64,000 nt of DNA from Caldisericaceae bacterium (GTDB taxonomy: Bacteria > Caldisericota > Caldisericia > Caldisericales > Caldisericaceae): assembly GCA_027023025.1 (NCBI GenBank), contig JALVXB010000001.1, positions 3,645 to 67,644 of the forward strand, in the 5' to 3' direction. Under the pieces are notes generated by a model. The model was not told the origin of the DNA. It worked only from the letters and a program-made list of their open reading frames with translations, and ran no database searches. The translations under genes and the position numbers were made by a program. Below, in pieces: positions 9,461 to 35,095 of the stretch; the first letter of the stretch is position 1, and each line of letters begins with the position of its first letter.

Positions 9461-10222
9461 TTATTCTTCCTCTATGCCTGCTTCCTTTCTAAGCCTTTCA
9501 AGAATTTCTGAAACATTGCCAAAGCGTGCGTTCTTTGCCTCTACCCGTTCAAGGTACTCGATTGCACCCTGCAAGTTGCCAAGTTTTGCAAGAGCAATTC
9601 CTATTCCAAACTGAATGGCAAGCTCGTCCTGCGTAAGTGCGAAACGCAAGGGGTCAAACTCTTTCAGCACATCGATTGACTCTTTGTATCTACCCAGGTC
9701 AAACAGGCAGGAACCAAGCAGACGCACCGTTTTAATGTCCCGTTTCTCCTCGGGAATTTTGCTGAGTATCTCCACAGCCTTTTTTACATTGCCTACATAG
9801 TAATACATCGCACCAACAATCAGGCGAAAGTAAGGCGTATCGAGTTGCGGGATTTTCTTCTCCAGAATTACGGCTGCCTTTTTATAGCTTGCAGGGTTCT
9901 TGCAGCGCCCACCAAAAAGTTTGGAAAGGTTATCCCTGTCCTGATTAAGTTTTGCAGATTCAAACAGAGCCTCTGCACCTTCTTTGCTCTTGCCCCTGTC
10001 CAGGTATGCTTTTGCCCGGGAAAGAAGCCGCGCACCTTTTTGTTCAGGTGAGAAAAGGTAAAGTATGTGGCCCGCAAATGTAACTACGAAAAGTATTATG
10101 CCAAGCTTTCGTTTGTCTGGAATAAGCGTCCCAAACACGGCAAAAATGTATCCTAAAATAATTAGCGTTGACGGAGAAACCGGTAAACTAAAACTTTTTA
10201 ACTTCTCTTTTAAATTTTCCAT
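9461..10222 (-). CDS. membrane-anchored TPR-repeat protein
   Basis: Two N-terminal TM helices (LIILGYIFAVFGTLI, LGIILFVVTFAGHILYLF) are followed by TPR-like helical repeats. RBS GGGAGGGAAG. Confidence 0.6.
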   Translation of the reverse strand: MENLKEKLKSFSLPVSPSTLIILGYIFAVFGTLIPDKRKLGIILFVVTFAGHILYLFSPEQKGARLLSRAKAYLDRGKSKEGAEALFESAKLNQDRDNLSKLFGGRCKNPASYKKAAVILEKKIPQLDTPYFRLIVGAMYYYVGNVKKAVEILSKIPEEKRDIKTVRLLGSCLFDLGRYKESIDVLKEFDPLRFALTQDELAIQFGIGIALAKLGNLQGAIEYLERVEAKNARFGNVSEILERLRKEAGIEEE

Positions 10223-10332: not shown

Positions 10333-10360
10333 TTGAAAATTCATTGCAAAATCGTAAAAT
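10333..10360 (+). promoter_or_regulatory. sigma-70-type promoter TTGAAA-N16-TAAAAT
   Basis: TTGAAA at 10333-10338 and TAAAAT at 10355-10360. The -10 ends 7 nt before ATG 10368 and overlaps the longer track start at 10344. Confidence 0.5.
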
Positions 10361-10367
10361 ACTTTTA

Positions 10368-13349
10368 ATGGATAAAAAGGAGATTGTGCTCAGTAAAAAA
10401 CCGCTACTTCCCGTGTACTTCGTGGACAGAGAAGCATTAAGGAGAAAAATCCTCTCTGCCGAACGCTTTGCCTTCATACAGGGAGGTGCTGGTTCTGGAA
10501 AGACGGTCCTTGCAGTTTCAGCCGTGCCCGACGATGCGATATATGTAAAAGTGGAAGAAGGGGCAAACGATACTGCACTGATCAAAACGGCAATTTCGAT
10601 CTCACGAATTCCGTTTTCCATAAGTGGCGCGTCACTTTCGCCTGACGAAAAACTCAGGGTGCTGCTTAAGTACTTCTTACAGAATGTAAAGAAAAGAAAA
10701 CGAAAGTTCTACCTCGTAGTTGACGACTTCCACAACTTAAAAAAGGGAAGCGAATCTTTGAAGTTCGTTAAACTTCTCGTTCAATATATGCCAGAAAATA
10801 TGAGGCTTATAATCATTTCCAGAAAAATGCCGCCCGTATTTATTATCAGGCACGGTGAAAGTGGTGTGATAATAACGGAAAGATCTTTAAGCTTCACTTT
10901 AAACGACACCGTAAAACTTGCAGAAAAAATGGACATAAACAATGCAAAAAACATTGCAGAAAAAGTTTTTGCGCTAACAAAAGGCTGGGCAGTTGGAACG
11001 GCACTTCTGCTCCGCACATACAGGGAAGAAGGCATCCTTAAAAAGGAATACCTGTTCGACTTTTTAATGGAGGAGGTATTCGAAAAACTTAGCCCCGGCG
11101 TACAGGACTTTCTTTTAAAAACAGTCCTCTTTAGTGAAATTTCACTGGACATTCTGCGAAACTATCAAAAGAGGATGCGCAAAGTTCTCGAGCAACTTTA
11201 CAAAAACGGCGTGTTCGTCTCAAAAACGGAAAACGGATTTATTTATCACGACCTGTTCAAAGAGTTCCTCATACGCAAATTGAAAGAAAACGGAACTTAC
11301 GAAAAAACGGTAAAGCGCACTGTCCTTACTTACCTGAAACTTGGCCGCAAGGAAGAAGCACTTGCCCTCTCTGGTGCGATAAACGACGCAAAAAGAATAA
11401 ACGAAATCCTTTCTCAGTTTCAAGAAAGAGAAGTTATTCTGTTTGCAGACACCGTTCTCAACGCAACCGAAAACCTTACGCAGGACACATTGAACGAATT
11501 TCCCAGAATTGCAATTGTGCGGGCGCGGGCGCTCCTCATAAAAAACAAACTGAATAGAGCACTCGCCCTTGCTTCTTCCGTTAAGTCCGACGAGAAAACA
11601 CTTGCAGACGCAGAGTTTTTGCTGCTGCAGATTTTAAACCGCACGGGCAGGTATAAAGAAGCAGTAAAAGAATTTATTCGTAGTAAGCCTCGTATTGACA
11701 AACTGAAAGAGGAAGGTAAGTATAAAGTTTACTACATGGGCTCTGAGGCTCTGTTTTACACGGGCAATTACGAAGAAGCACAGAAACTCGTAAGCGAAGC
11801 GTACAGACACAGAGAAAGCGTCTCTGACCCATTTTTAAAAACGCGTTTTATGAACGCTTACGCCGTGCTGATGTTCCACAACAAAGGAAAGTATAAAGAG
11901 GCAATAAACATTTACAGACAGATCATAGGAATAGCAAGAGAACGGAAAATTATTATTGACCCAATTATATTTACGAACATTGCATACTGTGAAATGGGTA
12001 TAGGGGACTACGAAAGTGCCGAGAAACACATAAAGCTTGCAATGGAGACATGCGAAAAGTTTGGGTGGAGCAAACGATTTACTTCCTCACAAATTGCATA
12101 CGGATACTTCCTTATAGAAAAACGCAACCTTGAAAAGGCGGAGTCGATCTTCAGTACGCTTGAAAAAGAAGAAGACATTTATGTGAAGTCTGCTGCACTT
12201 CTGGGTCTCTCTGAAACGCACAGAAAACAGGGAAAGTTTGACGAGGCCCTGACATACGAAGAAAAAGACTACAAAATATCAAAAGCACTGAAGAACGCGA
12301 TGTTCATTGCACAGTCTCTGATAGAAATCGGGCTAATTTACTGCGGAAAGAAGGAGTACAAAAAAGCAGAAGATGCACTTCGCAAAGCCGTCGAGTTTGC
12401 AAAAAAAGGCGAGAACATTTTTGAAGAGGCACGGGCACGGTTGTTTCTTGCGTGTACACTGTTTAAGAGGAAAAAGCGCTTTAAACGGGCGTTAAAAGAG
12501 GCAGAAAAACTCGTAAAAGAGAACGACTTCTACGGAATTTTGCACACTGAAAGGGAATACCTGGAGCAGTTTTTGAAAAAGGCATCTCCTTCGCTCAGCA
12601 CCCACATCGAAACGATGTTAAAGGAGCCTGTATACATAGAAACGCTCGGTACATTCTCCGTGAAGGTCAGCGGCACAGACGCTACGAAAACGCTTTTCAA
12701 AAGAGGAATGGAAAGAAAAATTTTTCAGTTTCTGCTGGTGAACTTTCCGCACCCCGTAAGTTACGACACTTTGATAGACACATTTTACAGAAGCGCAGAC
12801 TTCAAAAAGGCAAAGCACAACCTTAGCGTAATCGTGTCAAACATAAAAAACGCATTTGCACGCTTCGGCTGCGACATAATCAAGCGTCACGGAAACGGAT
12901 ATGTGCTAAATGTCTCTGCAGAGCAGGTGGACTTTACGGCGTTCGAGAAACTTTCAGAAAAAGGCCTTAAAGAAAAGGACGAAGAATTGCTGAAGAAAGC
13001 AGAGCAGCTGTACAAAGGCGACTTCCTTACGGAGCGCGTTTACGACGACTGGAGCACTGCAAAAAGAGAGATCCTATACACGCAGTACATGAAGGTGCTT
13101 ACAACGCTTTCTGAACTTACAGAAGGTGAGGAAAAGGAAGTTTACCTCACGAAGATTTTGCAAAAGGACAGTGCAAACGAAGAAGCGGCGTACGCACTGA
13201 TGCAGTATTATGTGTCTCAAGGAAAGACTAAAAAAGCACTGGATGTATACGGAAAAGTGAAAGCAGTGCTTAAAGGGGAATACGAGCTTGAGCCAGACGA
13301 AAAACTACAGACACTTTACGGAGAAATTGTAAAGAAAGAAGGCAGGTAA
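10368..13349 (+). CDS. STAND/MalT-like ATPase - TPR - C-terminal SARP (OmpR-type wHTH + BTAD) transcriptional regulator
   Basis: Walker A is GGAGSGKT and Walker B is FYLVVDDFH, followed by a long TPR region. The C-terminus has a wHTH (VYIETLGTFSVKVSG...GNGYVLNV) and a BTAD (LYKGDFLTERVYDDWSTAKREIL...ALMQYYVSQGKTKKALDVYGKVKAVLKGEYELEPDEKLQTLY). The start is uncertain: in-frame options are ATG 10344, ATG 10368 and GTG 10386. Confidence 0.8.
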   Translation: MDKKEIVLSKKPLLPVYFVDREALRRKILSAERFAFIQGGAGSGKTVLAVSAVPDDAIYVKVEEGANDTALIKTAISISRIPFSISGASLSPDEKLRVLLKYFLQNVKKRKRKFYLVVDDFHNLKKGSESLKFVKLLVQYMPENMRLIIISRKMPPVFIIRHGESGVIITERSLSFTLNDTVKLAEKMDINNAKNIAEKVFALTKGWAVGTALLLRTYREEGILKKEYLFDFLMEEVFEKLSPGVQDFLLKTVLFSEISLDILRNYQKRMRKVLEQLYKNGVFVSKTENGFIYHDLFKEFLIRKLKENGTYEKTVKRTVLTYLKLGRKEEALALSGAINDAKRINEILSQFQEREVILFADTVLNATENLTQDTLNEFPRIAIVRARALLIKNKLNRALALASSVKSDEKTLADAEFLLLQILNRTGRYKEAVKEFIRSKPRIDKLKEEGKYKVYYMGSEALFYTGNYEEAQKLVSEAYRHRESVSDPFLKTRFMNAYAVLMFHNKGKYKEAINIYRQIIGIARERKIIIDPIIFTNIAYCEMGIGDYESAEKHIKLAMETCEKFGWSKRFTSSQIAYGYFLIEKRNLEKAESIFSTLEKEEDIYVKSAALLGLSETHRKQGKFDEALTYEEKDYKISKALKNAMFIAQSLIEIGLIYCGKKEYKKAEDALRKAVEFAKKGENIFEEARARLFLACTLFKRKKRFKRALKEAEKLVKENDFYGILHTEREYLEQFLKKASPSLSTHIETMLKEPVYIETLGTFSVKVSGTDATKTLFKRGMERKIFQFLLVNFPHPVSYDTLIDTFYRSADFKKAKHNLSVIVSNIKNAFARFGCDIIKRHGNGYVLNVSAEQVDFTAFEKLSEKGLKEKDEELLKKAEQLYKGDFLTERVYDDWSTAKREILYTQYMKVLTTLSELTEGEEKEVYLTKILQKDSANEEAAYALMQYYVSQGKTKKALDVYGKVKAVLKGEYELEPDEKLQTLYGEIVKKEGR

Positions 13350-13664
13350 AGCATCCATCAAAGGCGAATACTTTTTTATGTCTCCTACTTTGCCTTTTAC
13401 CTTCACTCTGAAGTTTTTATTCCCCCGTTCTATTCTTTTAGTTATTCTGGAGATTTTTTCAATTGCTCTTTACAATCGCTCTGGCATTTTCTGGTACTCT
13501 GGTATTTTTTTCTTGTCCCTATTTTCTTGAGCGCTTCTATCAAACTTTCCATTTTACTTCTGTATTTTATCCAATCGCTTCTACACCTTTCCCGCACAGT
13601 CACATATTTTTTTGTTTCTCTTATTATACTTCGTCATCGAATAGCACAACTAATACTTATGGGA

Positions 13665-13903
13665 TCCTTCTCAAAAACGGCTCAGGACGACGGAGAGGAT
13701 GGTCACTCTTCGCTGCCCTAACGAAAACACATTTTGGCGGGTCATCCTGAACGAAGTGAAGGATCTCTACCTTAACGACCATACTTTTTGAAAAGCGTAA
13801 CTAACGAGTCGCTCTGAGCGAAGCGAAGAGTCTCTGCCTTAACAATCTTTGCTTTGTTTACATTGAAAACTGCATAAAATTTTGAAAAACGGCTCAGTAC
13901 GAC
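13665..13903 (+). repeat. repeat cluster (module D x2, degenerate A, two full family-A copies)
   Basis: Module D is at 13665-13693 (TCCTTCTCAAAAACGGCTCAGGACGACGG) and about 13885-13903. Family-A copies are at 13741-13776 and 13808-13843. The linker CCATACTTTTTGAAAAGCGTAACTAAC matches 1236-1262. Confidence 0.85.
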
Positions 13904-14018
13904 AAAATCACTACAAACAAACCCTGCATTTATCAGTGTTTATTTAAAAATCGCTAATTTAAGGTCCATAGACGCAAATCTTGAGAAAAATCGGGTAATT
14001 ATACCTGCAAAACGCGTT

Positions 14019-14073
14019 AAACGGCCTTATTTTAGGGCAAACGAAAATTGCAATAAAGCCTGTGTTTATCAGC
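14019..14073 (+). repeat. family-E repeat (AACGGCCTTATTTT..AAAATTGCAATAAAGCCTGTRTTTAT)
   Basis: A second copy lies at 56144-56207 on the same strand. A partial related motif CCTGCATTTATCAGTGTTT occurs at about 13923-13942. Confidence 0.7.
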
Positions 14074-14627
14074 ATTTCTCAAAAATTGCTCTGAAATTTT
14101 CAATTTGAATAAAATTAGCAAAAATAGAAACCCGCATAAATAAAGGTTTTTTAAAGGGTCGAAAGTGGGCAAAATCCAGCCGAAAAGCGAAAAATTGTTC
14201 GCATAAGGTAGAAAAACCAGCGAAGCAAGCAATTATAATGGCTAACGGCATTTTACATGCCTCTACATTACTGCACTATCCGGGACAATAGCAGATGCGT
14301 CCTTAATAACGCATTAGAACAATTACGATCTCACCAGGTATGCCACTGCAAGATACGAAATAAAAAATTAACTCACTCCGTAAAAACTTCTCTCTCCACC
14401 TTTTAAAGAAATTTCAGAACATTGCTGTAAAATACTCACACCACTTTGGTGTTCTTAACTGTAAAACTTTTTACGCTAAAGTGTAACTGCAATTTATAGC
14501 CAGGCACAAATCCAATTAACCGATACAATCTCGCTTTCAACGCGTCCAATAAAGAACGGTATTAATAACGGAAGATGCCTTACCTCCTTGGCAAAACACA
14601 GGTCGTCGATCGTATCCTCCACAGAGT

Positions 14628-17219
14628 TTACGGAACGGTAAAACTGTAGAGGATTTTTGAGAATCCTGCCCACGCCTTGCCGAAGTCTTCAGGGGTTGCG
14701 TCAAACTCAAGCGTGTAAATAATGTCGCCTTTTTTGAGAAAGAAAAGCGCAACTTTTAAGTCCATAGGATTGCCCTTTTCGTCTTCACCTTTTCCGCTTA
14801 CGACTAGTTTGTAAAAGTTTTGCCCGTTTATCTCAACGCTCTTTTCTTCCAGCACCTTTTCGTTGTCAAGAAATTGCGTTTTTATGTATTTCAAAAATTC
14901 CTCTTCGTCGATGCCTTCCTTTTTAAGGTCGTCGTGATAGATAAAAACTGATGCAACATATCCGTCTTTAAAGCCAGGGCTGTCTATCCTTATGTCCGTA
15001 TCTTCGTCGGGATTTTCTTCCAGCGTCCAGCCCTCTGGATAGTAAAACGCATATTGGTTATTTTTAAACTTTTTAACGGGGGTGATCTTTTTCAAAACCG
15101 CAGAGATAGTTTTATTGCCCTGCAGAGAGATTTGCTCCGCATAAGTTTCGTATCCCTCCTTTTTTAACTCCACGGTAAACTGCCCAAAAGAAAGCGTAAA
15201 GTCGTGCGGCGTTTTAAACCCCGTGTCCCTCCCGTTTATAAAAATCTCTGCACCCTGCGGGGTGGAATTCACTTTAAGCACATAGGTTGCTTTCTGCAAA
15301 CTCACATCCACGCTGGCCGTTTTGCCAGTGTTTACTTCCACTTTTACAGTTGCGCTTTTGTATCCTGCTTTCTTCAGCGTGATTGTGTGCACTCCGGTAG
15401 GCACGCCCTTAATCATATTTGGAGTTTTTACGCCCTTGTCGCGCCCGTCGACGAAAATCTCCGCACCGCTTGGATGCGAAACTATGCTGAGGTAACCTCC
15501 CAGCGCCTTCAGTTCAAAGTTTACGCTGACCGTTCCGCCGTTTTTCAGGTTTACCGTTTTGGTCGCACTTTCGTACCCTGCCTTTTTTACGGTCACTTCG
15601 TATGTGCCTTTCTGCGTTTCCTTTACTTTGTTCGGAGTTTTCAGCCCCGTGTCCCTCCCGTTTATGAAAATCTCTGCACCCTGCGGAGTGGAGTTTACGC
15701 TTATTACCATTGCCTTTTTAACGACGATTCCGCTGCCCGTGTTTTCGTTTGTGCTACCGCTTTGCGCGCTTTCTCCGCCTGTTGCACTGCCGCTGGTACC
15801 GTTAGAACCTCCGTTTGTTCCTATCTGCGAGGTCTGGGAAGTTCCGTTTCCACGGATTGCCACGCTGTTTCTGCGGTGTGCAGAAGCAAAAACTATAGTT
15901 CCAATAATTGCAACGAGGAGCGCCGCAATTATGCCGAGCACGACTTTGCTGCGGAACAAACTCTGGACGCTTACCTCGGGCAAACTTACCCTGGGAATTT
16001 TTCCGAAAGCGCTCTTTTTTGTTTTTCCGACACCTTCTATTATTTGTGTGCCTCCTTTTACTTCAGCGGGCACTTCCGGTGCACTTTCCTTTGCAATAGA
16101 CTTCTCGTCTTTTAACTTGCTGGCCTTTACATCTGGAGTTGCAGCTTTTCTCTTTGCAGCCGAAGCAGTAGCACCGTTGCCCAGGACGACAGTTTCACCG
16201 GGCTCATCGCTTTTTGCATTTTCCTTTGCTGCTCCAGATTCGCCCGAAGGAGCCACACTCGAAGAAGCCTTACCTTCACTTAAAACGACCGTCCCACTCT
16301 TTTCTGCGCCTTTAGCCTGCGGAACTTCCTCCTTTTTCAAAATTACGGTTTCGCCCTTTTCTACTTTGTGCTCCTTTTGCGGAATTGCTTTGCCCGCAGA
16401 AATTTCTGACAGGTCTTTCAGCAGCTCTTCTGGGTTCTGGTAGCGCTTTTTGGGATCTTTCTCGAGCAATTTAAAAATAACTTTCTTTAACTTTTCAGGC
16501 ACATCGCTTAAATTGATGGGCGGCACTTCTTTTGTAAGGTGCATACTGATAACGGACCACGGCGTTTCCCCGTCAAATGGCACTTTTCCCGTAAGCATCT
16601 GGTACATCGTGATGCCCAGCGCATACAGGTCGCTCCGAATGTCTGCTTTTTGTCCTTTTGCCTGCTCAGGCGACATATAAAAAGGCGTGCCCAGAATGGA
16701 GTCTGCAGCGGTAAGCCCTTCGCCTCCGCTGAGTTTTGCAATACCAAAGTCCATTACCTTTACTTTTCCGTTTGCAGTAAGCATAATGTTCTGCGGCTTG
16801 ATGTCGCGGTGCGCGATAAGCCCTTTGCTGCGGGCATAACCCAGAGCCTTTGCAACTTCCGATGCAATGCGCACCACTTCCTCGTACGGGAGCGAGCCTT
16901 TTTCCTCTAAAATCTGTGAAAGCGTTTTGCCCTGCACGAACTCCATTACGATAAAGTATGTTTCACCGTCTTTTCCAAAGTCGCGCACCCGTGCAATGTT
17001 TCCGTGCTTCATTCTTATTGCAATTTCTGCCTCTTTCAAAAAGCGCTTTACGAAGTTTTCGTTTTCTGCGTATTCTGAGTGCAGAACTTTAATTGCAACG
17101 ATTTCGTTCGTCTTGAGGTCGCGCGCAAGGTAAACGGTTGCCATACCCCCGCTTCCCACTTTGTCGTATATTTTGTACTTGCCGCTTATTACTTTGCCTA
17201 TGTACTTAATGTGTACCAC
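14628..17219 (-). CDS. Hanks-type Ser/Thr protein kinase with TM helix, PEGA-domain ectodomain repeats and C-terminal PsbP/DcrB-like domain
   Basis: Kinase motifs are GSGGMATVY, VAIKVL, HRDIKPQN, DFGIAK and SPEQ. The TM helix is VVLGIIAALLVAIIGTIVFA. At least three PEGA repeats are present (STPQGAEIFINGRDTG.KTP...KKAGYE). The start codon is GTG. Confidence 0.9.
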   Translation of the reverse strand: MVHIKYIGKVISGKYKIYDKVGSGGMATVYLARDLKTNEIVAIKVLHSEYAENENFVKRFLKEAEIAIRMKHGNIARVRDFGKDGETYFIVMEFVQGKTLSQILEEKGSLPYEEVVRIASEVAKALGYARSKGLIAHRDIKPQNIMLTANGKVKVMDFGIAKLSGGEGLTAADSILGTPFYMSPEQAKGQKADIRSDLYALGITMYQMLTGKVPFDGETPWSVISMHLTKEVPPINLSDVPEKLKKVIFKLLEKDPKKRYQNPEELLKDLSEISAGKAIPQKEHKVEKGETVILKKEEVPQAKGAEKSGTVVLSEGKASSSVAPSGESGAAKENAKSDEPGETVVLGNGATASAAKRKAATPDVKASKLKDEKSIAKESAPEVPAEVKGGTQIIEGVGKTKKSAFGKIPRVSLPEVSVQSLFRSKVVLGIIAALLVAIIGTIVFASAHRRNSVAIRGNGTSQTSQIGTNGGSNGTSGSATGGESAQSGSTNENTGSGIVVKKAMVISVNSTPQGAEIFINGRDTGLKTPNKVKETQKGTYEVTVKKAGYESATKTVNLKNGGTVSVNFELKALGGYLSIVSHPSGAEIFVDGRDKGVKTPNMIKGVPTGVHTITLKKAGYKSATVKVEVNTGKTASVDVSLQKATYVLKVNSTPQGAEIFINGRDTGFKTPHDFTLSFGQFTVELKKEGYETYAEQISLQGNKTISAVLKKITPVKKFKNNQYAFYYPEGWTLEENPDEDTDIRIDSPGFKDGYVASVFIYHDDLKKEGIDEEEFLKYIKTQFLDNEKVLEEKSVEINGQNFYKLVVSGKGEDEKGNPMDLKVALFFLKKGDIIYTLEFDATPEDFGKAWAGFSKILYSFTVP

Positions 17220-17245
17220 CTCTCTTTGCCGTGTGCCTTAACCAA

Positions 17246-18166
17246 TTAAAATGCCTTTTTTACGAACTTCAGGTAGTAAAGCGCTAAAAGCGCAAAAGCC
17301 AGCACGAGCACGAGTGTAATGTACATAAACTTCCTGCGTGACTTTTTCCCGCCGTCCTGCAAATTGCCCCGTTCCTTACGCATAGGAACGCTTTCTGCAA
17401 TAATCACTGTGATGTTGTCCTCTCCCCCATTTCTATTTGCACGGTCAATCAGCGCCCGCACCTTTTCCTCAGTTGAGAGCTTACTTTTCAGTACGCTCTC
17501 CATCGTTTTTTCACTGACCATATTGTAGAGCCCGTCGCTACAGAGGAGCACTTTGTTTTTTTCGTTAAGCGCAACTTCCGGATAGGTTTCAACTTCTACG
17601 CCCGCCTTTACCCCCAGGGCGCGCGTCAGCACATTTTTCTGCGTGCTCTCCCTTGCCTCTTTTTCACTGATCATCCCATTTTCCAACTGGTACGCAACGA
17701 GCGTGTGGTCGTGCGTAACTTGCGAAAGTTTACCGTCTTTTAACAGATAAACTCTACTGTCCCCCACATTGCCCGCAGACAAAACGCCGTTTTTTATAAA
17801 AGTAGCCGCTGCAGTCGTTCCCATTTTGCCGCTCAGATTGTGCGCTTCTGCGTACTGAAAAATTTTTTCGTTTGCTTTCTTCAGCACGCTAACGATGAAT
17901 GCCTCAGGGTTTGGAAAATCTGTCTGCTTTTCGAACACTTCTTTTGCAGTTTGTGCAGCAATGGTGCTTGCAACTTCCCCTTTTTCCATGCCCCCCATCC
18001 CGTCAAAAACGGCAAGGAAAACTGTTCCTCCTTTTTTGAGCACTACGAAGTCGTCTTCGTTGTTTGTCCTCTTTCTCCCTACATCTGTAAGTGCAGAGCA
18101 GGAGAGCCCCTCAATCTCTCCTGCATCCTCCTTTTTTGCAAGTTTCAGCGTTTTTGCCTGCTTCAT
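17246..18166 (-). CDS. PP2C-family Ser/Thr phosphatase with C-terminal TM anchor
   Basis: Motifs are RTNNEDDF, VFDGMGG, LLCSDGL and GGEDNITV. The C-terminal helix is FMYITLVLVLAFALLALYYL. Confidence 0.9.
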   Translation of the reverse strand: MKQAKTLKLAKKEDAGEIEGLSCSALTDVGRKRTNNEDDFVVLKKGGTVFLAVFDGMGGMEKGEVASTIAAQTAKEVFEKQTDFPNPEAFIVSVLKKANEKIFQYAEAHNLSGKMGTTAAATFIKNGVLSAGNVGDSRVYLLKDGKLSQVTHDHTLVAYQLENGMISEKEARESTQKNVLTRALGVKAGVEVETYPEVALNEKNKVLLCSDGLYNMVSEKTMESVLKSKLSTEEKVRALIDRANRNGGEDNITVIIAESVPMRKERGNLQDGGKKSRRKFMYITLVLVLAFALLALYYLKFVKKAF

Positions 18167-18173
18167 TACCCGT

Positions 18174-19838
18174 TTATGCCTTCTTGAATGTCATCTGCAC
18201 GCGTGCAAGTGTCACGGTGTCTCCGTCTTTTAACTCTTCACGCGTAATTTTATTACCGTTTACATAGGTGCCGTTCGTGCTTGCAAGGTCGTAAAGCACA
18301 AACTTGCCGTTTTCAAACTTTACCTTTGCGTGTTCCGACGAAACTGAAGGATCGTCCAAAACTATGTCGTTGTCCGCACTTCTTCCTATGTTCGTCGTGT
18401 TCCCTAACTTGAAGCTCTTTCCGTCACTGTTTCTTATAAGGTATGCAAGAGGCACGCTCTTTCCACCTAAAATTACCGTTTCGCCAGATGACGGAGCCTG
18501 TTTTTCGCGCACAGGTGCACCTTTTCTGGGCGTGCTCTTCCCGGGCGCGTTTGCTCTGCCTTTTTTGCTCATTAAAAGGAATGCGGCAAGCACCGCGATT
18601 ACTGCAATAAGCCCTAAAATTATCCAAAGCATTGGAACCTCCTTTTTGTCGTGTCCCTGGTCAATTTCGTAGCGGCACTTCTGAATGAACTGCTGGATGT
18701 ACGGATGGCCCGGATACATCTGCTCGACGATACCAAACTCCTTCAACGCCTTTGAGTAGTACCCGTTCCACATAAGTTCAAGCGCCTTTTTGTAGTGCTC
18801 GTCAAGAGAGCCCTGATGCGGAGTAACTCCCACTTCCTTCAAAAATTCCTTTGCAATGTTAATTGGGACGAGGAAGTTAAACCCCTCAATCGTCTGCCCG
18901 GTATTGTAGTCAATCGAGCCAAAGGTAGATATACCAATTACTTCGCCATTTTCGTTAAGAGCAGGTCCCCCTGAATTCCCGTGATAAATTGCAGCATCCG
19001 TCTGGATGACGCTCCAACCTCCTGGCATCTGCTTTATTGCACTGACGATACCTGAAGTTACAGTAGGAAGCGTAGCGCTTTCTCCCTTGAGGTACGGATG
19101 GAATGTGGCAACGCCCGGATAGCCGATGCAGTAGATTTTCTCGCCAACGACCGCCTTTGAGGAATCTCCCAGCGCAATCGTGGGCAGCTCTTCGTTCGTT
19201 TCAACTTTCAGGATTGCAACATCCTTTCCCGTGCCAACGCCCGACGGGTCGCCCACCTTTTTGATCTCACACTGCAAACCTTTCTCTGCAACGGCAATGC
19301 CCGGAATGGACTTTCCCTGAACTGCAAAAACGGTTTCCGTCACATTTGTAATCTGTGCGTGGTTCAGCAAAAACATAAAGAAGCCGTTCATAAACGCTTT
19401 TGCCTGCGCCTGCGTGATAGAGCCGTCTCCAAGTTGGTTTTCCGTCTCTTTCATCACGACCGTTTTGAGCAGCATAAACTTTTTGAACTGGTCAGTAAAC
19501 TTTACGACATGTGCGTTCGTCACGATGTAGCCGTCTGGCGTAACGATGAAACCGCTTCCTGATACGCCGGTTTTTGCGTGCTCTTTCCAGGTGCCGCCCT
19601 GTTTGTCCACTGTGAAGTGGAAGTTGTCGTCGTAGCTTGCAGACGGTGCAATCACATCGCCTTCAATAATCGTTTCTATGTACACCACTGCAGGCTCTGA
19701 CAACGCAATAATTTTGTCAGGAGACAGCGCCTTTCCGTTTTCCGCGCGGGCAACCTGTCCGTAGGGCAGTGCCGCAAGCGCAAAAAACAGTACGGCAATT
19801 AAAAGCACGACGCCTTTTTTAATGTTCGTTCTCTTCAT
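18174..19838 (-). CDS. secreted trypsin-like (S1/DegP-type) serine protease - TM helix - cytoplasmic FHA domain fusion
   Basis: Signal peptide is MKRTNIKKGVVLLIAVLFFALAALPYGQVARA. The catalytic triad context is TNAHVV, DVAILKV and GNSGGP. The TM helix is MLWIILGLIAVIAVLAAFLLM. The C-terminal FHA is IGRSADNDIVLDDPSVSSEHAKVKFENGKFVLYDLASTNGTYVNG. RBS AAAGGAGG. Confidence 0.85.
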   Translation of the reverse strand: MKRTNIKKGVVLLIAVLFFALAALPYGQVARAENGKALSPDKIIALSEPAVVYIETIIEGDVIAPSASYDDNFHFTVDKQGGTWKEHAKTGVSGSGFIVTPDGYIVTNAHVVKFTDQFKKFMLLKTVVMKETENQLGDGSITQAQAKAFMNGFFMFLLNHAQITNVTETVFAVQGKSIPGIAVAEKGLQCEIKKVGDPSGVGTGKDVAILKVETNEELPTIALGDSSKAVVGEKIYCIGYPGVATFHPYLKGESATLPTVTSGIVSAIKQMPGGWSVIQTDAAIYHGNSGGPALNENGEVIGISTFGSIDYNTGQTIEGFNFLVPINIAKEFLKEVGVTPHQGSLDEHYKKALELMWNGYYSKALKEFGIVEQMYPGHPYIQQFIQKCRYEIDQGHDKKEVPMLWIILGLIAVIAVLAAFLLMSKKGRANAPGKSTPRKGAPVREKQAPSSGETVILGGKSVPLAYLIRNSDGKSFKLGNTTNIGRSADNDIVLDDPSVSSEHAKVKFENGKFVLYDLASTNGTYVNGNKITREELKDGDTVTLARVQMTFKKA

Positions 19839-19998
19839 TTTTATCCTCCTTTAACATTTTTTCAATTGCACTTTGAATTTGTGCAAGCCCTCTTATCGGC
19901 CTTTCCACATTTTTCTGGATGTAGGAAACTGCTCCCACCCATACGCCTTTTTTCCGCTTCAACCTCACTAAAAACGACACAAATTTTTCTTCTTTCAT
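19819..19998 (-). CDS. candidate 59-aa small protein (below the ORF-track cutoff), overlaps the protease-FHA start by 20 nt
   Basis: Hand translation gives MKEEKFVSFLVRLKRKKGVWVGAVSYIQKNVERPIRGLAQIQSAIEKMLKEDKNEENEH. The RBS is weak (CTGAG). No family was recognised. Confidence 0.25.
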   Translation of the reverse strand: MKEEKFVSFLVRLKRKKGVWVGAVSYIQKNVERPIRGLAQIQSAIEKMLKEDKNEENEH

Positions 19999-20417
19999 CT
20001 CAGTTAAATTGTAAACTTGCCTGACAACAAAAAATCAACATTCAGAAAGTGCTGATAAACAGAGGGATGAAATAGAATTTGATTTCGGCTTTTTGAGGGA
20101 ATTAGTTTCTATTTTTTACGGAGCTTAGCAGCAGAAACGCTCAAGCAACTGGTAAAACATTTTGTCCACGCTTACGCATAAAGACGCAATCGAACCTATC
20201 TCGTGAACTTAATAACTCTGCCTCAAAATCTGCAGGGAGCACGGAAGAAAAAAAGGCCCTTCGCAGAAAAAACGCCCTTCGCAGGCGGGCATTGCTTATT
20301 CTCTGGAAACTAACCTAAACTGTAAAAAACAAATGGAATGTAAAAGTAAAGTTCGGTAAAGACTATCCAAAGTACATAAAAATATTCTAACAGCAATTCG
20401 CACAGCGCAGAAAAACT

Positions 20418-20790
20418 TCACTCGCTCTTTATTGCCTCAACGGGGTTTGTTTTAGATGCAAAGAGGGCAGGGAGGTATGAGAAGAGGAAACCTAAGAGAA
20501 GAGAGATCAGGGTAACGAGTATGAGGATGTTAATGGGGATGTAGTAGTTCCATCCTTTGAGTTTTTCTATTATAAGGGATACTGCAATGCCTGTGGGTAT
20601 GCCTATTGTTAGCGCTACGAGTGTCGTGTTTAATCCGTTCATAGTGAACTCTTTCGTTATGTCTTTTGCAGTTGCACCTATTGCTTTCTTTATGCCTATC
20701 TCTCTCGTTCTTCTAATTACTTCTATGAATAGCAGTGCTGATAGGGATAGGAATGCAGATAGTAATGCAAGGAGTATGAAGATGGAGAGG
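20418..20790 (-). repeat. near-identical 3' coding block shared by the three FtsX paralogs (copy 1)
   Basis: The last 123 codons (LSIFILLALLSAFLSLSALLFIEVIRRTREIGIKKAIGATAKDITKEF...NPVEAIKSE) are nearly identical at DNA level to 23056-23428 and 25630-26002. Confidence 0.9.
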
Positions 20791-22937: not shown

Positions 22938-23055
22938 CGTAATAACGCCTTCTTTAACCCCTCGTTTTTATGTATACTTGCTTCTTCCTTACCTATGTTA
23001 TACCAATATAAATCTTTTGCAAGAATCTGTTTTCCGTTGTTCAATAATTTCATCT

Positions 23056-23428
23056 TCACTCGCTCTTTATTGCCTCAACGGGGTTTGTTTTTGATGCAAA
23101 GAGGGCAGGGAGGTATGAGAAGAGAAAGCCTAAGAGAATGGAGATCAGAGTAACGAGTATGAGGATGTTAATGGGGATGTAGTAGTTCCATCCTTTGAGT
23201 TTTTCTATTATAAGGGATACTGCAATGCCTGTGGGTATGCCTATTGTTAGTGCTACGAGTGTCGTGTTTAATCCGTTCATCGTGAACTCTTTCGTTATGT
23301 CTTTTGCCGTTGCACCTATTGCTTTCTTTATGCCTATCTCTCTCGTTCTTCTAATTACTTCTATGAATAGCAGTGCTGATAGGGATAGGAATGCAGATAG
23401 TAATGCAAGGAGTATGAAGATGGAGAGA
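23056..23428 (-). repeat. near-identical 3' coding block (copy 2)
   Basis: See 20418-20790. An extra roughly 85-nt identity tract at 23508-23590 matches 26086-26168. Confidence 0.9.
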
Positions 23429-25617: not shown

Positions 25618-25629
25618 TATCTTTTCCCT

Positions 25630-26002
25630 TCACTCGCTTTTTATTGCCTCAACGGGGTTTGTTTTTGATGCAAAGAGTGCAGGGAAATATGAGAAGAGGA
25701 AGCCTAAGAGAAGGGAGATCAGGGTAACGAGTATGAGGATGTTAATGGGGATGTAGTAGTTCCATCCTTTGAGTTTTTCTATTATGAGGGATACTGCAAT
25801 GCCTGTGGGTATGCCTATTGTTAGTGCTATAAGTGTCGTGGTTAATCCGTTCATCGTGAACTCTTTCGTTATGTCTTTTGCCGTTGCACCTATTGCTTTC
25901 TTTATACCTATCTCTCTCGTTCTTCTAATTACTTCTATGAATAGTAGTGCTGATAGGGATAGGAATGCAGATAGTAATGCAAGGAGTATGAAGATGGAGA
26001 GA
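25630..26002 (-). repeat. near-identical 3' coding block (copy 3)
   Basis: See 20418-20790. Confidence 0.9.
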
Positions 26003-34500: not shown

Positions 34501-35095
34501 CGGAAACTTTCCTGCCGTACGAAAACGAACTGGCTGTTTTTTCTGTAATACTTCCGTCAGGCCAGCTTATTTTTAGCACATTCCCGTAAGCCTTTAATCG
34601 TCCATTTTTGCCAGGGTCGTACCTCAGTTTTACGCTTGAGATATTTTTTGATACTATATTCCACTCAAGTTTTCCGTCTTTGCTGAAAAATGCAAGACTG
34701 TAGTTCCCGCAGTCGTAAAATATCTTTCCAAATGCTGGTGCACGCAGATACTTTGACCTATTGATCATATAACTTATCTGCGTTTTCAAAGGTATACTGC
34801 TTTCCGGTTTCCCGTCCACATAAACTCTGTAAACAAATCTCTTTCCGTTCTTTCGTGTGGAGAACCCAAAGAAGCCTTTTCCAAAGAACGCGATGCCGTC
34901 TTTTAAGTATGCGTAGTATTCAACTGACTTATCTGCCTGTCCTACATTCTTCACGAAGTAAACGGAGTTTGCTTTTGCAAAGGTCTGGCTCGCAAGCGTC
35001 TTCGCAGAAGTGTGAGGCACACTACCCGAAAGGTAAGAAGCACTCAAACCAAGTATCAAAACCAACGACAAAAATATGGTAAATATTTTCTTCAT
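31532..35095 (-). CDS. S-layer-homology anchored surface protein: SBBP beta-propeller repeats - DUF11-like - PKD - SLH domains
   Basis: Signal peptide is MKKIFTIFLSLVLILGLSA. About 8 repeats match the pattern YLGGS..D.......VYVAG.T.S.NFP.T..A.....G..DGFVSKL. The PKD region is PPYDYKISFGDGTDE...YTVSIEVTDSKG. The C-terminal SLH motifs are GYPDGLFRPEKMVTRAEVATML, FKDVSAGKWY and FTDVKPTDWF...FRPNKPVTRAEFVTLL. Confidence 0.85.
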   Translation of the reverse strand: MKKIFTIFLSLVLILGLSASYLSGSVPHTSAKTLASQTFAKANSVYFVKNVGQADKSVEYYAYLKDGIAFFGKGFFGFSTRKNGKRFVYRVYVDGKPESSIPLKTQISYMINRSKYLRAPAFGKIFYDCGNYSLAFFSKDGKLEWNIVSKNISSVKLRYDPGKNGRLKAYGNVLKISWPDGSITEKTASSFSYGRKVSVNYKVLDGNVVTFESAAKSVLIDPATYLGGEGEDVAYTEFVTDKGVYVGGYTNSPHFPTVPGSYDENYGGNQDGFVSLLSSDLSTLIASTFIGGSGEDGVNKITVSNGTVYIAGYTKSTPQSFPVTSNAYQAQNRGGEDVFVAELSSDLSELKYATYLGGSANDRPYAIAVYNNSVYIAGGTYSADFPTTNGAYDRTSEAVSTNQYKLDGFVSKLSEDLSTLEASTFLEGSSYDVIYALGIYDNSVYVAGYTYSSNFPVVNAYQPSNNGAFDAFVSKLNLNLTQLEASTYLGGSSYEFAYDLAFGSDGVYVAGGTFSGNFPVTSNALQKTYGGASSSWSYGGDGFISELSFGLNTLKNSTYLGGSADDSVSAIKVEGNKVFAAGDTKSGNFPINGDTFDKTYNGEGDGFIAVVSNDLSNLELSTYFGGTKQDNSGAIFIKDSYVYVAGNTYSTDFPVTNGAYDTDYNGGATTPNAWGGGDAFVLKLTDLLTEPQPILRISKTGPGNATSGSVAMYKITIKNTGNGTAYNTILTDYLPAGEHFISGTPAPDSVTVNAYGTKVVWNVGSFDPDKTLVFTYKVSVPLVMSGCMSFTNRAVLTADNADKAETSFSTLVCATNPPPKPNPPKPNPINITINPPEKICINSESKFVFTFTGGVPPYDYKISFGDGTDEITGKESGKFITLLHTFAKAGLYTVSIEVTDSKGTTSVLTRSVEAKDCRVVLLVYHQNFIIGYPDGLFRPEKMVTRAEVATMLSRALGFNANVLNHISPFKDVSAGKWYFRFVKTINIEKLMKGRSQYDFYPNAPATRAEVAAILVRIRGLKPEEPQEQLFTDVKPTDWFNGYIYTAVKAGLLQGYKDHTFRPNKPVTRAEFVTLLSRALYREDVPQAENLKNLPKVPFTDVSASYWAYRYIIEAAVPHIVTNALRAPINLILPTKTIPVYLASTKSEIKFPKIGVPEKVIVPVDGLQDGKDPTPRKVIVRIINTGTP

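What the first reader, a model, noticed from the sequence alone, without database searches (positions are those of the whole stretch)
14628..19998. Signalling operon pairing a PEGA-ectodomain Ser/Thr kinase and PP2C phosphatase with a secreted protease-TM-FHA fusion
The three genes are tightly linked on the minus strand with gaps of 7 and 26 nt. The first encodes a signal peptide and a trypsin/DegP-like protease with an intact triad (TNAHVV, DVAILKV, GNSGGP). A helical TPR-like segment, one TM helix and a cytoplasmic FHA domain follow. FHA domains read phosphothreonine, and the adjacent kinase and phosphatase write and erase it. The topology therefore predicts inside-out control. Cytoplasmic phosphorylation status would be coupled through the FHA-TM link to a protease acting in the envelope, while the kinase senses the envelope through PEGA and PsbP-like ectodomains. 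I know of no characterised system in which an extracytoplasmic S1 protease is tethered to a cytoplasmic FHA reader.
Basis: partly seen in the sequence, partly recalled or inferred. Interest (0 to 1): 0.72.

Follow-up and report, generated by a model that had tools for sequence, protein, structure and literature searches.

The report
Envelope protease tethered to phosphothreonine reader
A bacterial operon encodes a membrane kinase, its phosphatase and an outward-facing protein-cutting enzyme whose inward-facing tail is a phosphothreonine-binding (FHA) domain; the arrangement is uncharacterised, occurs in at least four phyla, and could let phosphorylation inside the cell steer proteolysis outside it.

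Summary
On the minus strand lie a type-I membrane protein (signal peptide, HtrA/DegS-like protease, TPR-like helices, one TM helix, disordered linker, canonical FHA domain), a PP2C phosphatase and a Hanks kinase with three PEGA domains and a PsbP-like ectodomain. The gaps are 7 and 26 nt.

Topology puts protease and FHA on opposite sides. The catalytic triad and the FHA pThr-binding residues are invariant in 18 homologues. All 16 FHA-fused loci with sequence downstream of the protease gene (four phyla) carry a PP2C gene and 15 a kinase gene. None of about 70 FHA-less relatives has PP2C nearby.

The FHA tail was acquired at least twice. A T-V-[IV]-[IL] motif (pT+3 hydrophobic) recurs 1-5 times in the kinase juxtamembrane linkers, once before the FHA domain and once at the phosphatase N-terminus.

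Most likely the FHA tail docks on phospho-motifs, recruiting or clustering the protease at the active kinase. A disordered 37-residue linker argues against rigid transmembrane coupling. Direction and effect are untested. I found no characterised example; this is a new variant of FHA-output signalling.

The parts
19819..19998 (-). Small ORF (59 aa), first gene of the unit. It overlaps the protease start codon by 20 nt. Function unknown.
   Evidence: Homologues sit in the same position in L003, L004/L087, L084 and L089; it is absent in L085. Only 4 hits among 1.84 billion representative proteins. No Pfam or NCBIfam match.
18174..19838 (-). Gene for the type-I membrane protein: signal peptide, HtrA/DegS-like S1 protease, TPR-like helices, TM helix, disordered linker, FHA domain (554 aa).
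19743..19838 (-). Signal peptide (residues 1-32: MKRTNIKKG, hydrophobic core, A-R-A|E).
   Evidence: Hydropathy peak at 6-24 and sequence inspection. No dedicated signal-peptide predictor was available.
18819..19721 (-). Extracytoplasmic protease domain (residues 40-340) with a helical insertion (116-160) between the catalytic His and Asp. Triad H110 (19509-19511), D206 (19221-19223), S289 (18972-18974).
   Evidence: The triad is invariant in A1 and A2. PDB profile hits to DegP/MucD/HtrA1/DegS, E 1e-30. Foldseek to DegS/HtrA1/Deg1/DegQ, E 1e-15, target TM about 0.75. AF2 pLDDT above 90.
18660..18809 (-). Three-helix TPR-like segment (residues 344-393) replacing the PDZ domain of classical HtrA proteases.
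   Evidence: AF2 helices 344-357, 361-374 and 381-393. Weak BamD-TPR hit at 341-383. A TPR_2 hit at the equivalent place in homologue P0027.
18570..18632 (-). Transmembrane helix (residues 403-423).
   Evidence: Hydropathy 3.05. AF2 helix 403-423. A TM helix about 115 aa after the catalytic Ser occurs in nearly all family members.
18459..18569 (-). Cytoplasmic disordered, basic linker (residues 424-460) containing E-T454-V-I-L (18468-18482), a candidate phospho-acceptor and FHA ligand.
   Evidence: pLDDT below 50. G-E-T-[VI]-I-[LM] (N-E-T-V-I-L in L003) lies exactly 30 residues before the FHA 'IGR' in all Caldisericaceae orthologues, while the rest of the linker varies.
18180..18446 (-). Cytoplasmic FHA domain (residues 465-553). 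Conserved G485-R486, S500-x-x-H503, S520-T-N522-G-T.
   Evidence: Pfam FHA E 1e-22. Residues invariant. AF2 beta-sandwich with pLDDT above 90. The TM-plus-FHA module hits the FhaB/FipA profile at 60 bits, below its 125-bit cut-off.
17246..18166 (-). PP2C Ser/Thr phosphatase (306 aa). It has an N-terminal extension carrying K-T6-L-K-L and a C-terminal TM anchor (residues 281-299).
   Evidence: NCBIfam Stp1/IreP equivalogue, 245 bits against a 230-bit cut-off. Pfam PP2C. The N-terminal T-[LV]-x-L motif is conserved in all eight distinct orthologues.
14628..17219 (-). Hanks-type receptor Ser/Thr kinase (863 aa). Kinase domain 15-264 (16428-17177), juxtamembrane linker 269-425 (15945-16415), TM 426-444 (15888-15944), three PEGA repeats about 503-715 (15075-15713), PsbP-like domain 716-863 (14631-15074).
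   Evidence: K44, HRD and DFG are present. The best PDB relatives are S. aureus PknB, StkP and Mtb PknB (E 1e-57 to 1e-64).
16038..16358 (-). Repeated juxtamembrane motifs: G-E-T291-V-I-L, S-G-T310-V-V-L, G-E-T343-V-V-L and the weaker G-G-T391-Q-I-I. These are candidate autophosphorylation and FHA-docking sites.
   Evidence: 1-5 copies occur in each of seven distinct orthologous kinases whose linkers are otherwise unalignable. In the five tested, 14 were observed against 0.42 expected from shuffling; 0 of 20,000 shuffles reached 14. T291 aligns with the juxtamembrane 'KMKTI' of S. aureus PknB.
10344..13349 (+). Tentatively associated gene: STAND-type AAA/MalT-like NTPase, TPR, OmpR-type winged helix and BTAD (SARP-like) regulator, 1001 aa, convergent with the operon.
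   Evidence: Pfam and NCBIfam. An orthologue lies next to the operon in L003 and L004 (convergent) and L084 (directly upstream, same direction), but not in L085. No conserved T-V-I-L motif. The link is by synteny only.

Best explanation
This is a Hanks-kinase/PP2C/FHA phospho-threonine signalling module. Its FHA 'output' protein is a membrane-anchored, outward-facing HtrA/DegS-like protease.

Shown. The protease domain (intact triad, no PDZ) lies outside the membrane. A single TM helix and a disordered basic linker connect it to a canonical cytoplasmic FHA domain. The kinase has its catalytic domain inside and PEGA x3 plus a PsbP-like domain outside. The phosphatase is cytoplasmic and membrane-tethered. 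The genes form one tight operon, and the fusion-plus-linkage recurs in four phyla and arose at least twice.

Inferred.
(1) An envelope cue acting on the PEGA/PsbP ectodomain activates the kinase.
(2) The kinase phosphorylates the T-V-[IV]-[IL] motifs in its own juxtamembrane linker (1-5 copies), in the protease's linker (T454) and perhaps at the phosphatase N-terminus (T6).
(3) The protease's FHA domain binds these pThr-x-x-[L/I] sites.
(4) This recruits the protease next to the active receptor and/or cross-links protease molecules through FHA-to-pT454 contacts in trans.
(5) Local concentration or oligomeric state of the ectoprotease therefore changes. HtrA proteases work as trimers or higher oligomers, so envelope proteolysis would follow.
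(6) PP2C erases the marks and resets the system.

Control is by proximity and multivalency, not by a conformational change passed through the membrane.
For: Architecture and topology.

Canonical FHA residues and catalytic triad are invariant.

Linkage. All 16 FHA-fused loci with sequence downstream of the protease gene have an adjacent PP2C gene, and 15 of 16 have an adjacent kinase gene. None of about 70 FHA-less family members has PP2C within 8 kb.

Independent acquisition. In a neighbour-joining tree of the ectodomain, the Caldisericaceae and the Acidobacteria-type fusions are each monophyletic (20/20 bootstraps) and never sisters (0/20). 73 FHA-less sequences lie inside their common clade. 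The window's FHA is nearer to the stand-alone Zn-ribbon FHA protein of the other class (phmmer 1e-15 to 1e-18) than to that class's protease-borne FHA (1e-5 to 1e-7).

Docking motifs. T-V-[IV]-[IL] is enriched about 30-fold in the juxtamembrane linkers. It is present in all orthologues in the protease linker and at the PP2C N-terminus. A similar [RK]-T-V-[LVI]-[LIF] precedes the FHA domain of the stand-alone FHA protein in the second class.

The motif lies in a predicted disordered segment, not in the FHA fold.

Precedents. The phosphorylated PknB juxtamembrane domain binds FhaA (cited in PMC12077195). A conserved juxtamembrane Thr (PrkC T290) is required for signalling (10.1101/2025.11.01.686061). 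The FHA-bearing ABC transporter Rv1747 is positively regulated by its operonic kinase PknF through Thr sites in an unstructured linker (PMC3138270, PMC8339232). FHA output proteins with variable effector domains and a phospho-Thr in a disordered region occur in the Esr pathway (PMC13622651).
Against: There are no phosphorylation, binding or protease data; everything past the architecture is inference.

The T-V-I-L motifs could simply reflect kinase substrate preference, or beta-strand-forming linear motifs unrelated to FHA.

The Acidobacteria-type protease-FHA proteins lack the motif in their own linker, so self-association through a linker pThr cannot be general.

One FHA-fused locus (L027) has PP2C but no adjacent kinase.

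Most family members work with only a short tail, so the protease does not need cytoplasmic input to function.

Trimerisation, substrates and the effect of clustering on activity are unknown.

The kinase's positive-inside signal is weak (2 vs 3 K/R). Its topology rests on the absence of a signal peptide and the extracytoplasmic nature of PEGA domains.
Confidence: 0.5

Rival explanations
1. Information flows the other way (outside-in, or scaffold). The protease-FHA protein is a co-sensor or activator of the kinase. An HtrA-like trimer with three FHA tails binds juxtamembrane pThr sites of several kinase molecules and promotes their trans-autophosphorylation. Alternatively, the ectoprotease processes the kinase's ectodomain or its ligand. 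Either way the protease tunes kinase signalling rather than being its output.
For: Juxtamembrane Thr phosphorylation promotes trans-autoactivation in PrkC (10.1101/2025.11.01.686061). Multiple docking motifs per kinase suit multivalent scaffolding. Both ectodomains would be brought side by side. A SARP-like regulator is a conserved neighbour and could be the real transcriptional output.
Against: FHA domains are readers that usually mark downstream targets or adaptors of kinases. A disordered linker cannot report the ectodomain's state to the FHA domain. There is no evidence that the protease cuts PEGA or PsbP domains. The regulator has no conserved Thr motif.
Confidence: 0.22
2. There is no regulatory coupling of proteolysis. 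The tail is an FhaB/FipA-like membrane FHA adaptor (cell-envelope growth or division scaffold) that became fused to a neighbouring housekeeping envelope protease. The fusion only ensures co-expression and membrane co-localisation, and protease activity is constitutive.
For: Residues 404-541 match the FhaB/FipA profile (E 2e-16). The second-class operons (protease-FHA, small FHA, PP2C, kinase, kinase) mirror the mycobacterial fhaA-fhaB-pstP-...-pknA-pknB order. Most family members act without any cytoplasmic domain.
Against: There were two independent FHA acquisitions by the same protease family, each inside a kinase/phosphatase operon. The association between fusion and kinase/phosphatase neighbours is perfect. 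Both are hard to explain without selection for coupling. The FhaB score is below the family cut-off (60 vs 125 bits).
Confidence: 0.15
3. The ectodomain is a pseudo-protease or chaperone-like binding module, and the protein is simply a single-pass receptor-like FHA adaptor.
For: Some HtrA-family members have chaperone functions (general knowledge). No PDZ domain is present.
Against: His, Asp, Ser and the GNSGGP oxyanion-hole motif are invariant across 99 family members. The fold matches active DegS/HtrA1 structures.
Confidence: 0.05

Closest known systems
Mycobacterial/actinobacterial fhaA-fhaB(fipA)-pstP-rodA-pbpA-pknA-pknB cluster
   Same: It is an operon of FHA protein(s), a PP2C phosphatase and PknB-type receptor kinase(s). 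The FHA domain docks on the phosphorylated juxtamembrane domain of the kinase (PknB-FhaA, cited in PMC12077195). FhaB/FipA is a TM-anchored FHA protein, and the window's TM-plus-FHA module hits its profile. The second-class loci have the same gene order: large FHA protein, small FHA protein, PP2C, kinase, kinase.
   Different: The large FHA protein here carries an extracytoplasmic HtrA-like protease. There are no rodA or pbpA genes. The kinase ectodomain is PEGA x3 plus PsbP-like, not PASTA. The FhaB profile score is below its cut-off.
Rv1747 (FHA-bearing ABC exporter) with its operonic kinase PknF, Mycobacterium tuberculosis
   Same: A membrane effector that acts towards the envelope is fused to cytoplasmic FHA domain(s), encoded next to its kinase, with phospho-acceptor Thr residues in an unstructured linker. 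Phosphorylation positively regulates the effector (PMC3138270, PMC8339232). This is the best functional precedent for inside-out control through a fused FHA.
   Different: The effector there is an ABC transporter with cytoplasmic ATPase domains that FHA can influence directly. Here the catalytic domain is on the far side of the membrane, so only position or oligomeric state can be controlled.
HtrA/DegP/DegS family (MEROPS S1C)
   Same: Chymotrypsin-fold protease domain with a His-Asp-Ser triad and envelope location. The best sequence and structural matches are DegP-like, MucD, HtrA1 and DegS. DegS is a membrane-anchored signalling protease.
   Different: There is no PDZ domain; three TPR-like helices take its place. 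A 45-residue helical insertion lies between His and Asp. The anchor is a C-terminal TM helix (type I) rather than N-terminal. All NCBIfam HtrA/DegS equivalogue scores are far below cut-off (127 vs 416 bits at best).
EsrG-type FHA output proteins of kinase/phosphatase threat-sensing pathways in Actinomycetales (PMC13622651, 2026 preprint)
   Same: A kinase/phosphatase pair sets the phosphorylation of a Thr in a disordered region next to a C-terminal FHA domain. The FHA protein carries variable effector domains (at least 13 configurations) that define the output.
   Different: Those outputs are cytoplasmic (pseudophosphatase, zinc fingers) and depend on MoxR/vWA/beta-propeller sensors. No extracytoplasmic protease output is described there.
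Type III secretion YscD/PrgH-type and type VI secretion Fha/PpkA/PppA systems
   Same: YscD-type proteins combine a cytoplasmic FHA-like domain, one TM helix and a periplasmic domain, and the window's FHA hits Pfam Yop-YscD_cpl (E 7e-15). In T6SS a kinase/phosphatase pair controls assembly of an envelope machine through an FHA protein (general knowledge; 10.1101/2023.12.21.572528 listed).
   Different: Those are structural parts of secretion machines. No secretion-system genes are present here, and the outer domain is an enzyme.
FHA-FHA-Trypsin protein of Bacteroides thetaiotaomicron (NP_811686.1)
   Same: It is the only FHA-plus-trypsin architecture I found in the literature, listed in a 2008 domain survey (PMC2605481).
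   Different: The FHA domains are N-terminal and doubled. No topology, kinase linkage or function was discussed, and I did not test whether it is homologous to this family.

Membership tests
HtrA/DegP/DegS (S1C) proteases | Chymotrypsin-fold domain with His-Asp-Ser triad and GNSGGP-type oxyanion hole | tested here: met
   H110, D206 and S289 are invariant. Foldseek to DegS/HtrA1, E 1e-15. PDB profile, E 1e-30.
HtrA/DegP/DegS (S1C) proteases | One or two C-terminal PDZ domains | tested here: not met
   No PDZ hit in Pfam or NCBIfam. AF2 shows three helices and then the TM helix.
HtrA/DegP/DegS (S1C) proteases | Score above the curated family cut-off | tested here: not met
   degP_htrA_DO 126.9 vs 416 bits; DegS 90 vs 423 bits.
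HtrA/DegP/DegS (S1C) proteases | Trimeric or higher-order assembly | not testable with these tools
   Only monomer prediction was available.
FHA domain (PF00498) | Conserved G-R, S-x-x-H and N residues of the pThr-binding loops, and a beta-sandwich fold | tested here: met
   G485, R486, S500, H503 and N522 are invariant. Pfam E 1e-22. AF2 strands 465-553, pLDDT above 90.
FHA domain (PF00498) | Binds phosphothreonine peptides | not testable with these tools
   Needs ITC, SPR or a phospho-aware structure prediction.
FhaB/FipA (Rv0019c) membrane FHA adaptors | TM helix followed by a cytoplasmic FHA domain, encoded with PP2C and PknB-type kinase | tested here: met
   Residues 404-541 align to profile positions 16-148 of 158. 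Operon context.
FhaB/FipA (Rv0019c) membrane FHA adaptors | Equivalogue score and small size with no ectodomain | tested here: not met
   60 bits against a 125-bit cut-off. A 400-residue ectodomain is present.
Hanks-type PknB/Stk1 receptor kinases | Catalytic Lys, HRD, DFG, activation-loop Thr, and a juxtamembrane Thr about 20 residues after the kinase domain | tested here: met
   K44, AHRDIK and MDFG confirmed. The alignment to S. aureus PknB extends to T291, which matches 'KMKTI'.
Hanks-type PknB/Stk1 receptor kinases | PASTA repeats in the ectodomain | tested here: not met
   PEGA x3 plus PsbP-like instead. PknB_PASTA_kin scores 370 bits against a 450-bit cut-off.
Stp1/IreP PP2C phosphatases | NCBIfam equivalogue score above cut-off; PP2C metal-binding motifs | tested here: met
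   245 vs 230 bits. The motifs NED, DGMGG, GDSR, SDG and GGEDN are visible in the sequence.
FHA-regulated membrane effectors (Rv1747/PknF type) | FHA fused to a membrane effector, an operonic kinase, and Thr acceptor(s) in a disordered linker | tested here: met
   Architecture and linkage. The conserved T454 lies in a linker with pLDDT below 50. Phosphorylation itself was not testable.
FHA-regulated membrane effectors (Rv1747/PknF type) | The effector is an ABC transporter | tested here: not met
   The effector is an S1 protease.

The most novel reading that the evidence does not exclude
Cytoplasmic threonine phosphorylation controls proteolysis on the outer face of the membrane. The active receptor kinase builds a multivalent pThr platform on its juxtamembrane linker. 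That platform captures and clusters a single-pass HtrA-like protease through its FHA tail. Envelope or surface-layer proteins next to the sensor are then cut only while the kinase is on. This would be a bacterial inside-out signalling route with no characterised counterpart, and it evolved at least twice.
Probability: 0.35. Interest if true: 0.8.

Novelty: new variant of a known kind. Interest (0 to 1): 0.62.

Why it matters
Bacterial Hanks kinase/PP2C/FHA modules are known to regulate cytoplasmic targets, transporters and secretion machines. No case is known in which the FHA reader is physically joined to an enzyme working outside the membrane.

If the model holds, it shows how a cell can switch extracytoplasmic proteolysis on and off with a reversible cytoplasmic mark. 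It also gives a defined, testable peptide code (pT-V-[IV]-[IL]) for FHA docking.

It would assign a function to a widespread but unstudied family of C-terminally anchored, PDZ-less HtrA-like proteases found in Chitinophagaceae, Clostridia, Paenibacillus, Acidobacteria and others.

The double origin of the fusion is a natural experiment arguing that the coupling is selected.

Tried and rejected
(1) Searching the large protein database with the kinase ectodomain (residues 445-863) returned only generic PEGA proteins. The C-terminal domain alone returned nothing, so no alignment could be built for it.

(2) Single-sequence AF2 of the kinase ectodomain was poor (pLDDT 52.7; the C-terminal domain below 50). 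I ran no fold search on it. The PsbP assignment rests on Pfam.

(3) Rfam gathering scan of the whole window: no hits.

(4) Promoter and terminator scan of 14000-20500: counts not above shuffles. The only convincing hairpin is at 20273-20287(-), after the upstream permease gene.

(5) I clustered the neighbours of FHA-less family members to guess a substrate or partner. Only lineage-specific synteny emerged (for example housekeeping genes in Chitinophagaceae), with no shared partner.

(6) I looked for the T-V-I-L motif in the SARP-like regulator: none is conserved.

(7) I tested whether 'ETVIL' is a strand of the FHA fold. AF2 places it in the disordered linker, so that idea was rejected.

(8) FHA percent-identity comparison between classes was inconclusive (35-37%). 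The independent-origin argument rests on the ectodomain tree and the phmmer scores.

(9) The metagenome scan for more close orthologues gave only two loci.

(11) Pseudo-protease, same-side topology and chance juxtaposition were considered and rejected on the evidence above.

Full report
OBSERVATION. The three ORFs lie on the minus strand as described: 18174..19838 (554 aa), 17246..18166 (306 aa) and 14628..17219 (863 aa). The gaps are 7 and 26 nt. Pfam assigns Trypsin_2 (94-303, E 1e-26) plus FHA (483-544, E 1e-22) to the first protein. It assigns PP2C to the second, and Pkinase plus three PEGA repeats to the third. The PsbP hit was sub-threshold on the whole kinase. It passes Pfam's cut-off when the last 150 residues are scanned alone (27.8 vs 23.5 bits). 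Four of the five sequences scanned (window plus four orthologues) pass, and one hits PsbP_2 at 46.7 bits.

The finding's upper coordinate, 19998, is the start of a separate 59-aa ORF (19819..19998). It is in another frame and overlaps the protease ATG by 20 nt. A G+C-rich hairpin followed by a T-run at 20273-20287(-) follows the upstream permease gene. The unit is therefore most simply a four-gene operon with its own upstream boundary.

THE PROTEASE-FHA PROTEIN. Hydropathy shows two peaks, at residues 6-24 and 404-422. The first has a basic n-region and an A-R-A|E motif typical of a cleaved signal peptide. The second is flanked by 3 K/R plus 4 D/E on the N-side and 5 K/R plus 0 D/E on the C-side.

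AlphaFold2 on a 99-sequence alignment gave mean pLDDT 86. It models:
- a confident ectodomain (40-400);
- a long helical insertion (116-160) between the catalytic His and Asp;
- three helices (344-393) instead of a PDZ domain;
- a TM helix (403-423);
- a disordered stretch (424-460, pLDDT below 50);
- a confident FHA beta-sandwich (465-553).

Foldseek against the PDB returns DegS, HtrA1, Deg1 and DegQ protease domains (E about 1e-15, target TM-score about 0.75). A profile search of PDB sequences returns DegP-like, MucD and HtrA1 (E 1e-27 to 1e-30).

In an 18-sequence alignment of FHA-bearing homologues, H110, D206 and S289 are invariant. So are the FHA residues G485, R486, S500, H503 and N522. 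The TM-plus-FHA module resembles mycobacterial FhaB/FipA (E 2e-16, but 60 bits against a 125-bit cut-off). Protease outside and FHA inside is therefore well supported, and both domains look functional.

THE FAMILY. The ectodomain belongs to a large, unnamed family (1344 hits at E below 1e-5). In nearly all of the 99 aligned family members it has a signal peptide and a TM helix about 115 residues after the catalytic Ser. Most members have cytoplasmic tails of only 7-50 residues. Some carry zinc-ribbon tails. 22 of the 99 aligned members carry FHA.

Members occur in Chitinophagaceae, Clostridia, Paenibacillus, Thermoleophilia, Pyrinomonadaceae and others. FHA fusions occur in Caldisericaceae (the window's lineage, 60-99% identity), Acidobacteriaceae, Methylomirabilota and a Geobacter MAG.

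LINKAGE. I called ORFs in 83 related loci and searched them with the window's kinase, PP2C and FHA segments. I added eight more contexts.
- Every FHA-fused locus with sequence downstream of the protease gene carries a PP2C gene next door. These are the window, L001-L004, L013, L021, L026, L027, L082-L085 and L088-L090.
- All but L027 also carry one or two kinase genes.
- None of about 70 FHA-less loci has PP2C within 8 kb. One (L024) has a weak kinase-like ORF.
- Independent clustering of neighbouring ORFs gave the same split: the PP2C cluster is in 9 of 9 FHA loci and the kinase cluster in 9 of 10.

Caldisericaceae loci read sORF, protease-FHA, PP2C, kinase(PEGA, PsbP-like). The other class reads protease-FHA, a 163-aa zinc-ribbon FHA protein, PP2C, kinase, kinase. 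That order recalls fhaA-fhaB-pstP-...-pknA-pknB.

TWO ORIGINS. In a neighbour-joining tree of the ectodomain columns, each class of FHA fusion is monophyletic in 20 of 20 bootstraps. They are never sisters (0 of 20), and 73 FHA-less sequences fall inside their common clade. The window's nearest ectodomain relatives outside its own clade are FHA-less (44-45% identity against 34-39% for the other class). Its FHA domain scores far better against the stand-alone FHA protein of the other class (1e-15 to 1e-18) than against that class's protease-borne FHA (1e-5 to 1e-7). The same protease family therefore acquired an FHA tail at least twice, each time inside a kinase/phosphatase operon.

A SHARED THREONINE MOTIF. 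This was not in the original finding. The kinase juxtamembrane linkers of the Caldisericaceae orthologues are unalignable and range from 70 to 157 residues. Yet each contains 1-5 copies of T-V-[IVL]-[IL]:
- window: GE-T291-VIL, SG-T310-VVL, GE-T343-VVL, plus GG-T391-QII;
- L085: five copies;
- L084, L088 and L090: three or more each.

Shuffling the five linkers tested gives 0.42 expected matches against 14 observed. None of 20,000 shuffles reached 14.

T291 aligns with the juxtamembrane 'KMKTI' of S. aureus PknB. This is the position of the conserved PrkC Thr290-type phosphosite that is required for signalling in B. subtilis (10.1101/2025.11.01.686061).

The same motif, G-E-T-[VI]-I-[LM] (N-E-T-V-I-L in L003), lies exactly 30 residues before the FHA 'IGR' in every Caldisericaceae protease, within an otherwise variable and predicted-disordered linker. 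A T-[LV]-x-L motif sits at residues 5-8 of every cognate PP2C. In the other class the motif ([RK]-T-V-[LVI]-[LIF]) precedes the FHA domain of the stand-alone FHA protein rather than that of the protease.

From general knowledge of FHA specificity, a hydrophobic residue at pT+3 is the classic preference of many FHA domains. Acidic residues before the Thr and hydrophobic residues after it suit PknB-type kinases.

MECHANISM. The shown parts are architecture, topology, conservation and linkage. The inferred chain is as follows. An envelope cue activates the kinase. The T-V-I-L sites are phosphorylated. The protease's FHA docks on the kinase linker and/or on pT454 of neighbouring protease molecules. 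The ectoprotease is then concentrated or oligomerised beside the sensor's ectodomain, and PP2C resets the system.

The linker between the TM helix and the FHA domain is disordered and variable. I therefore consider conformational transmission through the membrane unlikely and favour proximity or multivalency.

Precedents:
- FhaA binding to the phosphorylated PknB juxtamembrane domain (cited in PMC12077195);
- Rv1747, an FHA-bearing ABC transporter positively regulated by its operonic kinase PknF through Thr sites in an unstructured linker (PMC3138270, PMC8339232);
- EsrG-type FHA output proteins with variable effector domains (PMC13622651).

Rival readings cannot be excluded without experiments. 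They are the protease-FHA protein as a scaffold or co-sensor that activates the kinase, a passive fusion of an FhaB-like adaptor to a housekeeping protease, and a pseudo-protease. The last is disfavoured by invariant catalytic residues.

OTHER COMPONENTS. The PP2C is an Stp1/IreP equivalogue (245 vs 230 bits). It has a C-terminal TM anchor in six of eight distinct orthologues. The kinase catalytic domain is PknB/Stk1-like (E 1e-57 to 1e-64 against PDB) but lacks PASTA. Kinase-plus-PEGA architectures are common elsewhere.

The small ORF is conserved in four of the five distinct loci that include sequence upstream of the protease gene. It has only four hits in 1.84 billion representative proteins, so it is lineage-specific and of unknown role.

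A 1001-aa STAND-NTPase/TPR/winged-helix/BTAD (SARP-like) regulator (10344..13349) is a neighbour of the operon in four distinct Caldisericaceae loci, the window included, and absent in one. By analogy with AfsK/AfsR and PknH/EmbR (general knowledge) it could be a transcriptional output. It has no conserved Thr motif, and the link is synteny only.

LITERATURE AND NOVELTY. Seven full-text searches found no characterised protein with an extracytoplasmic S1 protease tethered to a cytoplasmic FHA domain. The nearest mention is an FHA-FHA-Trypsin architecture in Bacteroides thetaiotaomicron in a 2008 survey (PMC2605481). Database names for the homologues are generic, such as 'trypsin-like peptidase domain-containing protein' and 'serine protease Do'. 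The library lacks most subscription journals, so absence of evidence is not proof.

I rate this a new variant of a known kind. It is an FHA-output kinase/phosphatase module, the effector is new, and it lies on the far side of the membrane.

VERDICT. Interest 0.62. The strongest new evidence is the perfect fusion/linkage association, the double origin of the fusion, and the shared pT-x-x-hydrophobic motif on all three partners.

Noticed in passing
window 19819-19998 (-): A 59-aa ORF overlaps the protease start by 20 nt. It has a conserved F-x-S-F-L-[IV]-R-[IL]...W-[VI]-G core in Caldisericaceae relatives. Only 4 hits in 1.84 billion representative proteins, no family match, function unknown.
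   Followed up: yes
window 10344-13349 (+): A 1001-aa AAA/MalT-like NTPase, TPR, OmpR-type winged-helix and BTAD (SARP-like) regulator. It is a conserved neighbour of the operon in L003, L004 and L084 and a possible transcriptional output of the kinase (AfsK/AfsR-like). No conserved Thr motif was found.
   Followed up: partly
window 20416-20715, 23054-23353, 25628-25927: Three tandem MacB/FtsX-like permease genes (839, 853 and 849 aa) share 96-97% identical 300-nt 3' ends, although the rest of the genes have diverged. This suggests gene conversion or recent partial duplication. A MacB/FtsX gene also lies downstream of the operon in L084.
   Followed up: partly
window 13350-14627: A 1.28-kb A+T-rich stretch between the regulator and the kinase genes has no ORF of note and no Rfam match. 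In L003 a radical-SAM gene occupies the equivalent position, so this may be a decayed gene.
   Followed up: partly
window 28241-31063 (-) and 31532-35095 (-): Large surface-protein genes lie just upstream. One has BNR/Sortilin beta-propeller, Glucodextran_B and Cu_amine_oxidN1 domains. The other has DUF11, PKD and three SLH domains. L084 also has a Cu_amine_oxidN1 surface protease next to the operon, so the neighbourhood is rich in cell-surface genes.
   Followed up: no
L001 7334-7825, L002 9904-10398, L013 2044-2532 (and other class-2 loci): The stand-alone zinc-ribbon FHA protein of the Acidobacteria-type operons has G-S in place of the canonical G-R of the pThr-binding loop. It carries an [RK]-T-V-[LVI]-[LIF] motif about 15 residues before the domain. 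It may be a non-canonical FHA domain.
   Followed up: partly
window 19359-19493 (-) (protease residues 116-160): A two-helix insertion of about 45 residues lies between the catalytic His and Asp of the chymotrypsin fold and is conserved across the family. Faint Pfam Peptidase_S46 hits suggest a distant parallel with the helical insertion of S46 dipeptidyl peptidases.
   Followed up: no
protein P0162: A metagenomic protein combines Trypsin_2 with PEGA domains in a single chain. These are the two ectodomain types that this operon places on separate proteins.
   Followed up: no
window 9461-10222 (-): A 253-aa TPR protein with an N-terminal hydrophobic segment lies divergent from the SARP-like regulator gene. 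Its relation to the system is unknown.
   Followed up: no
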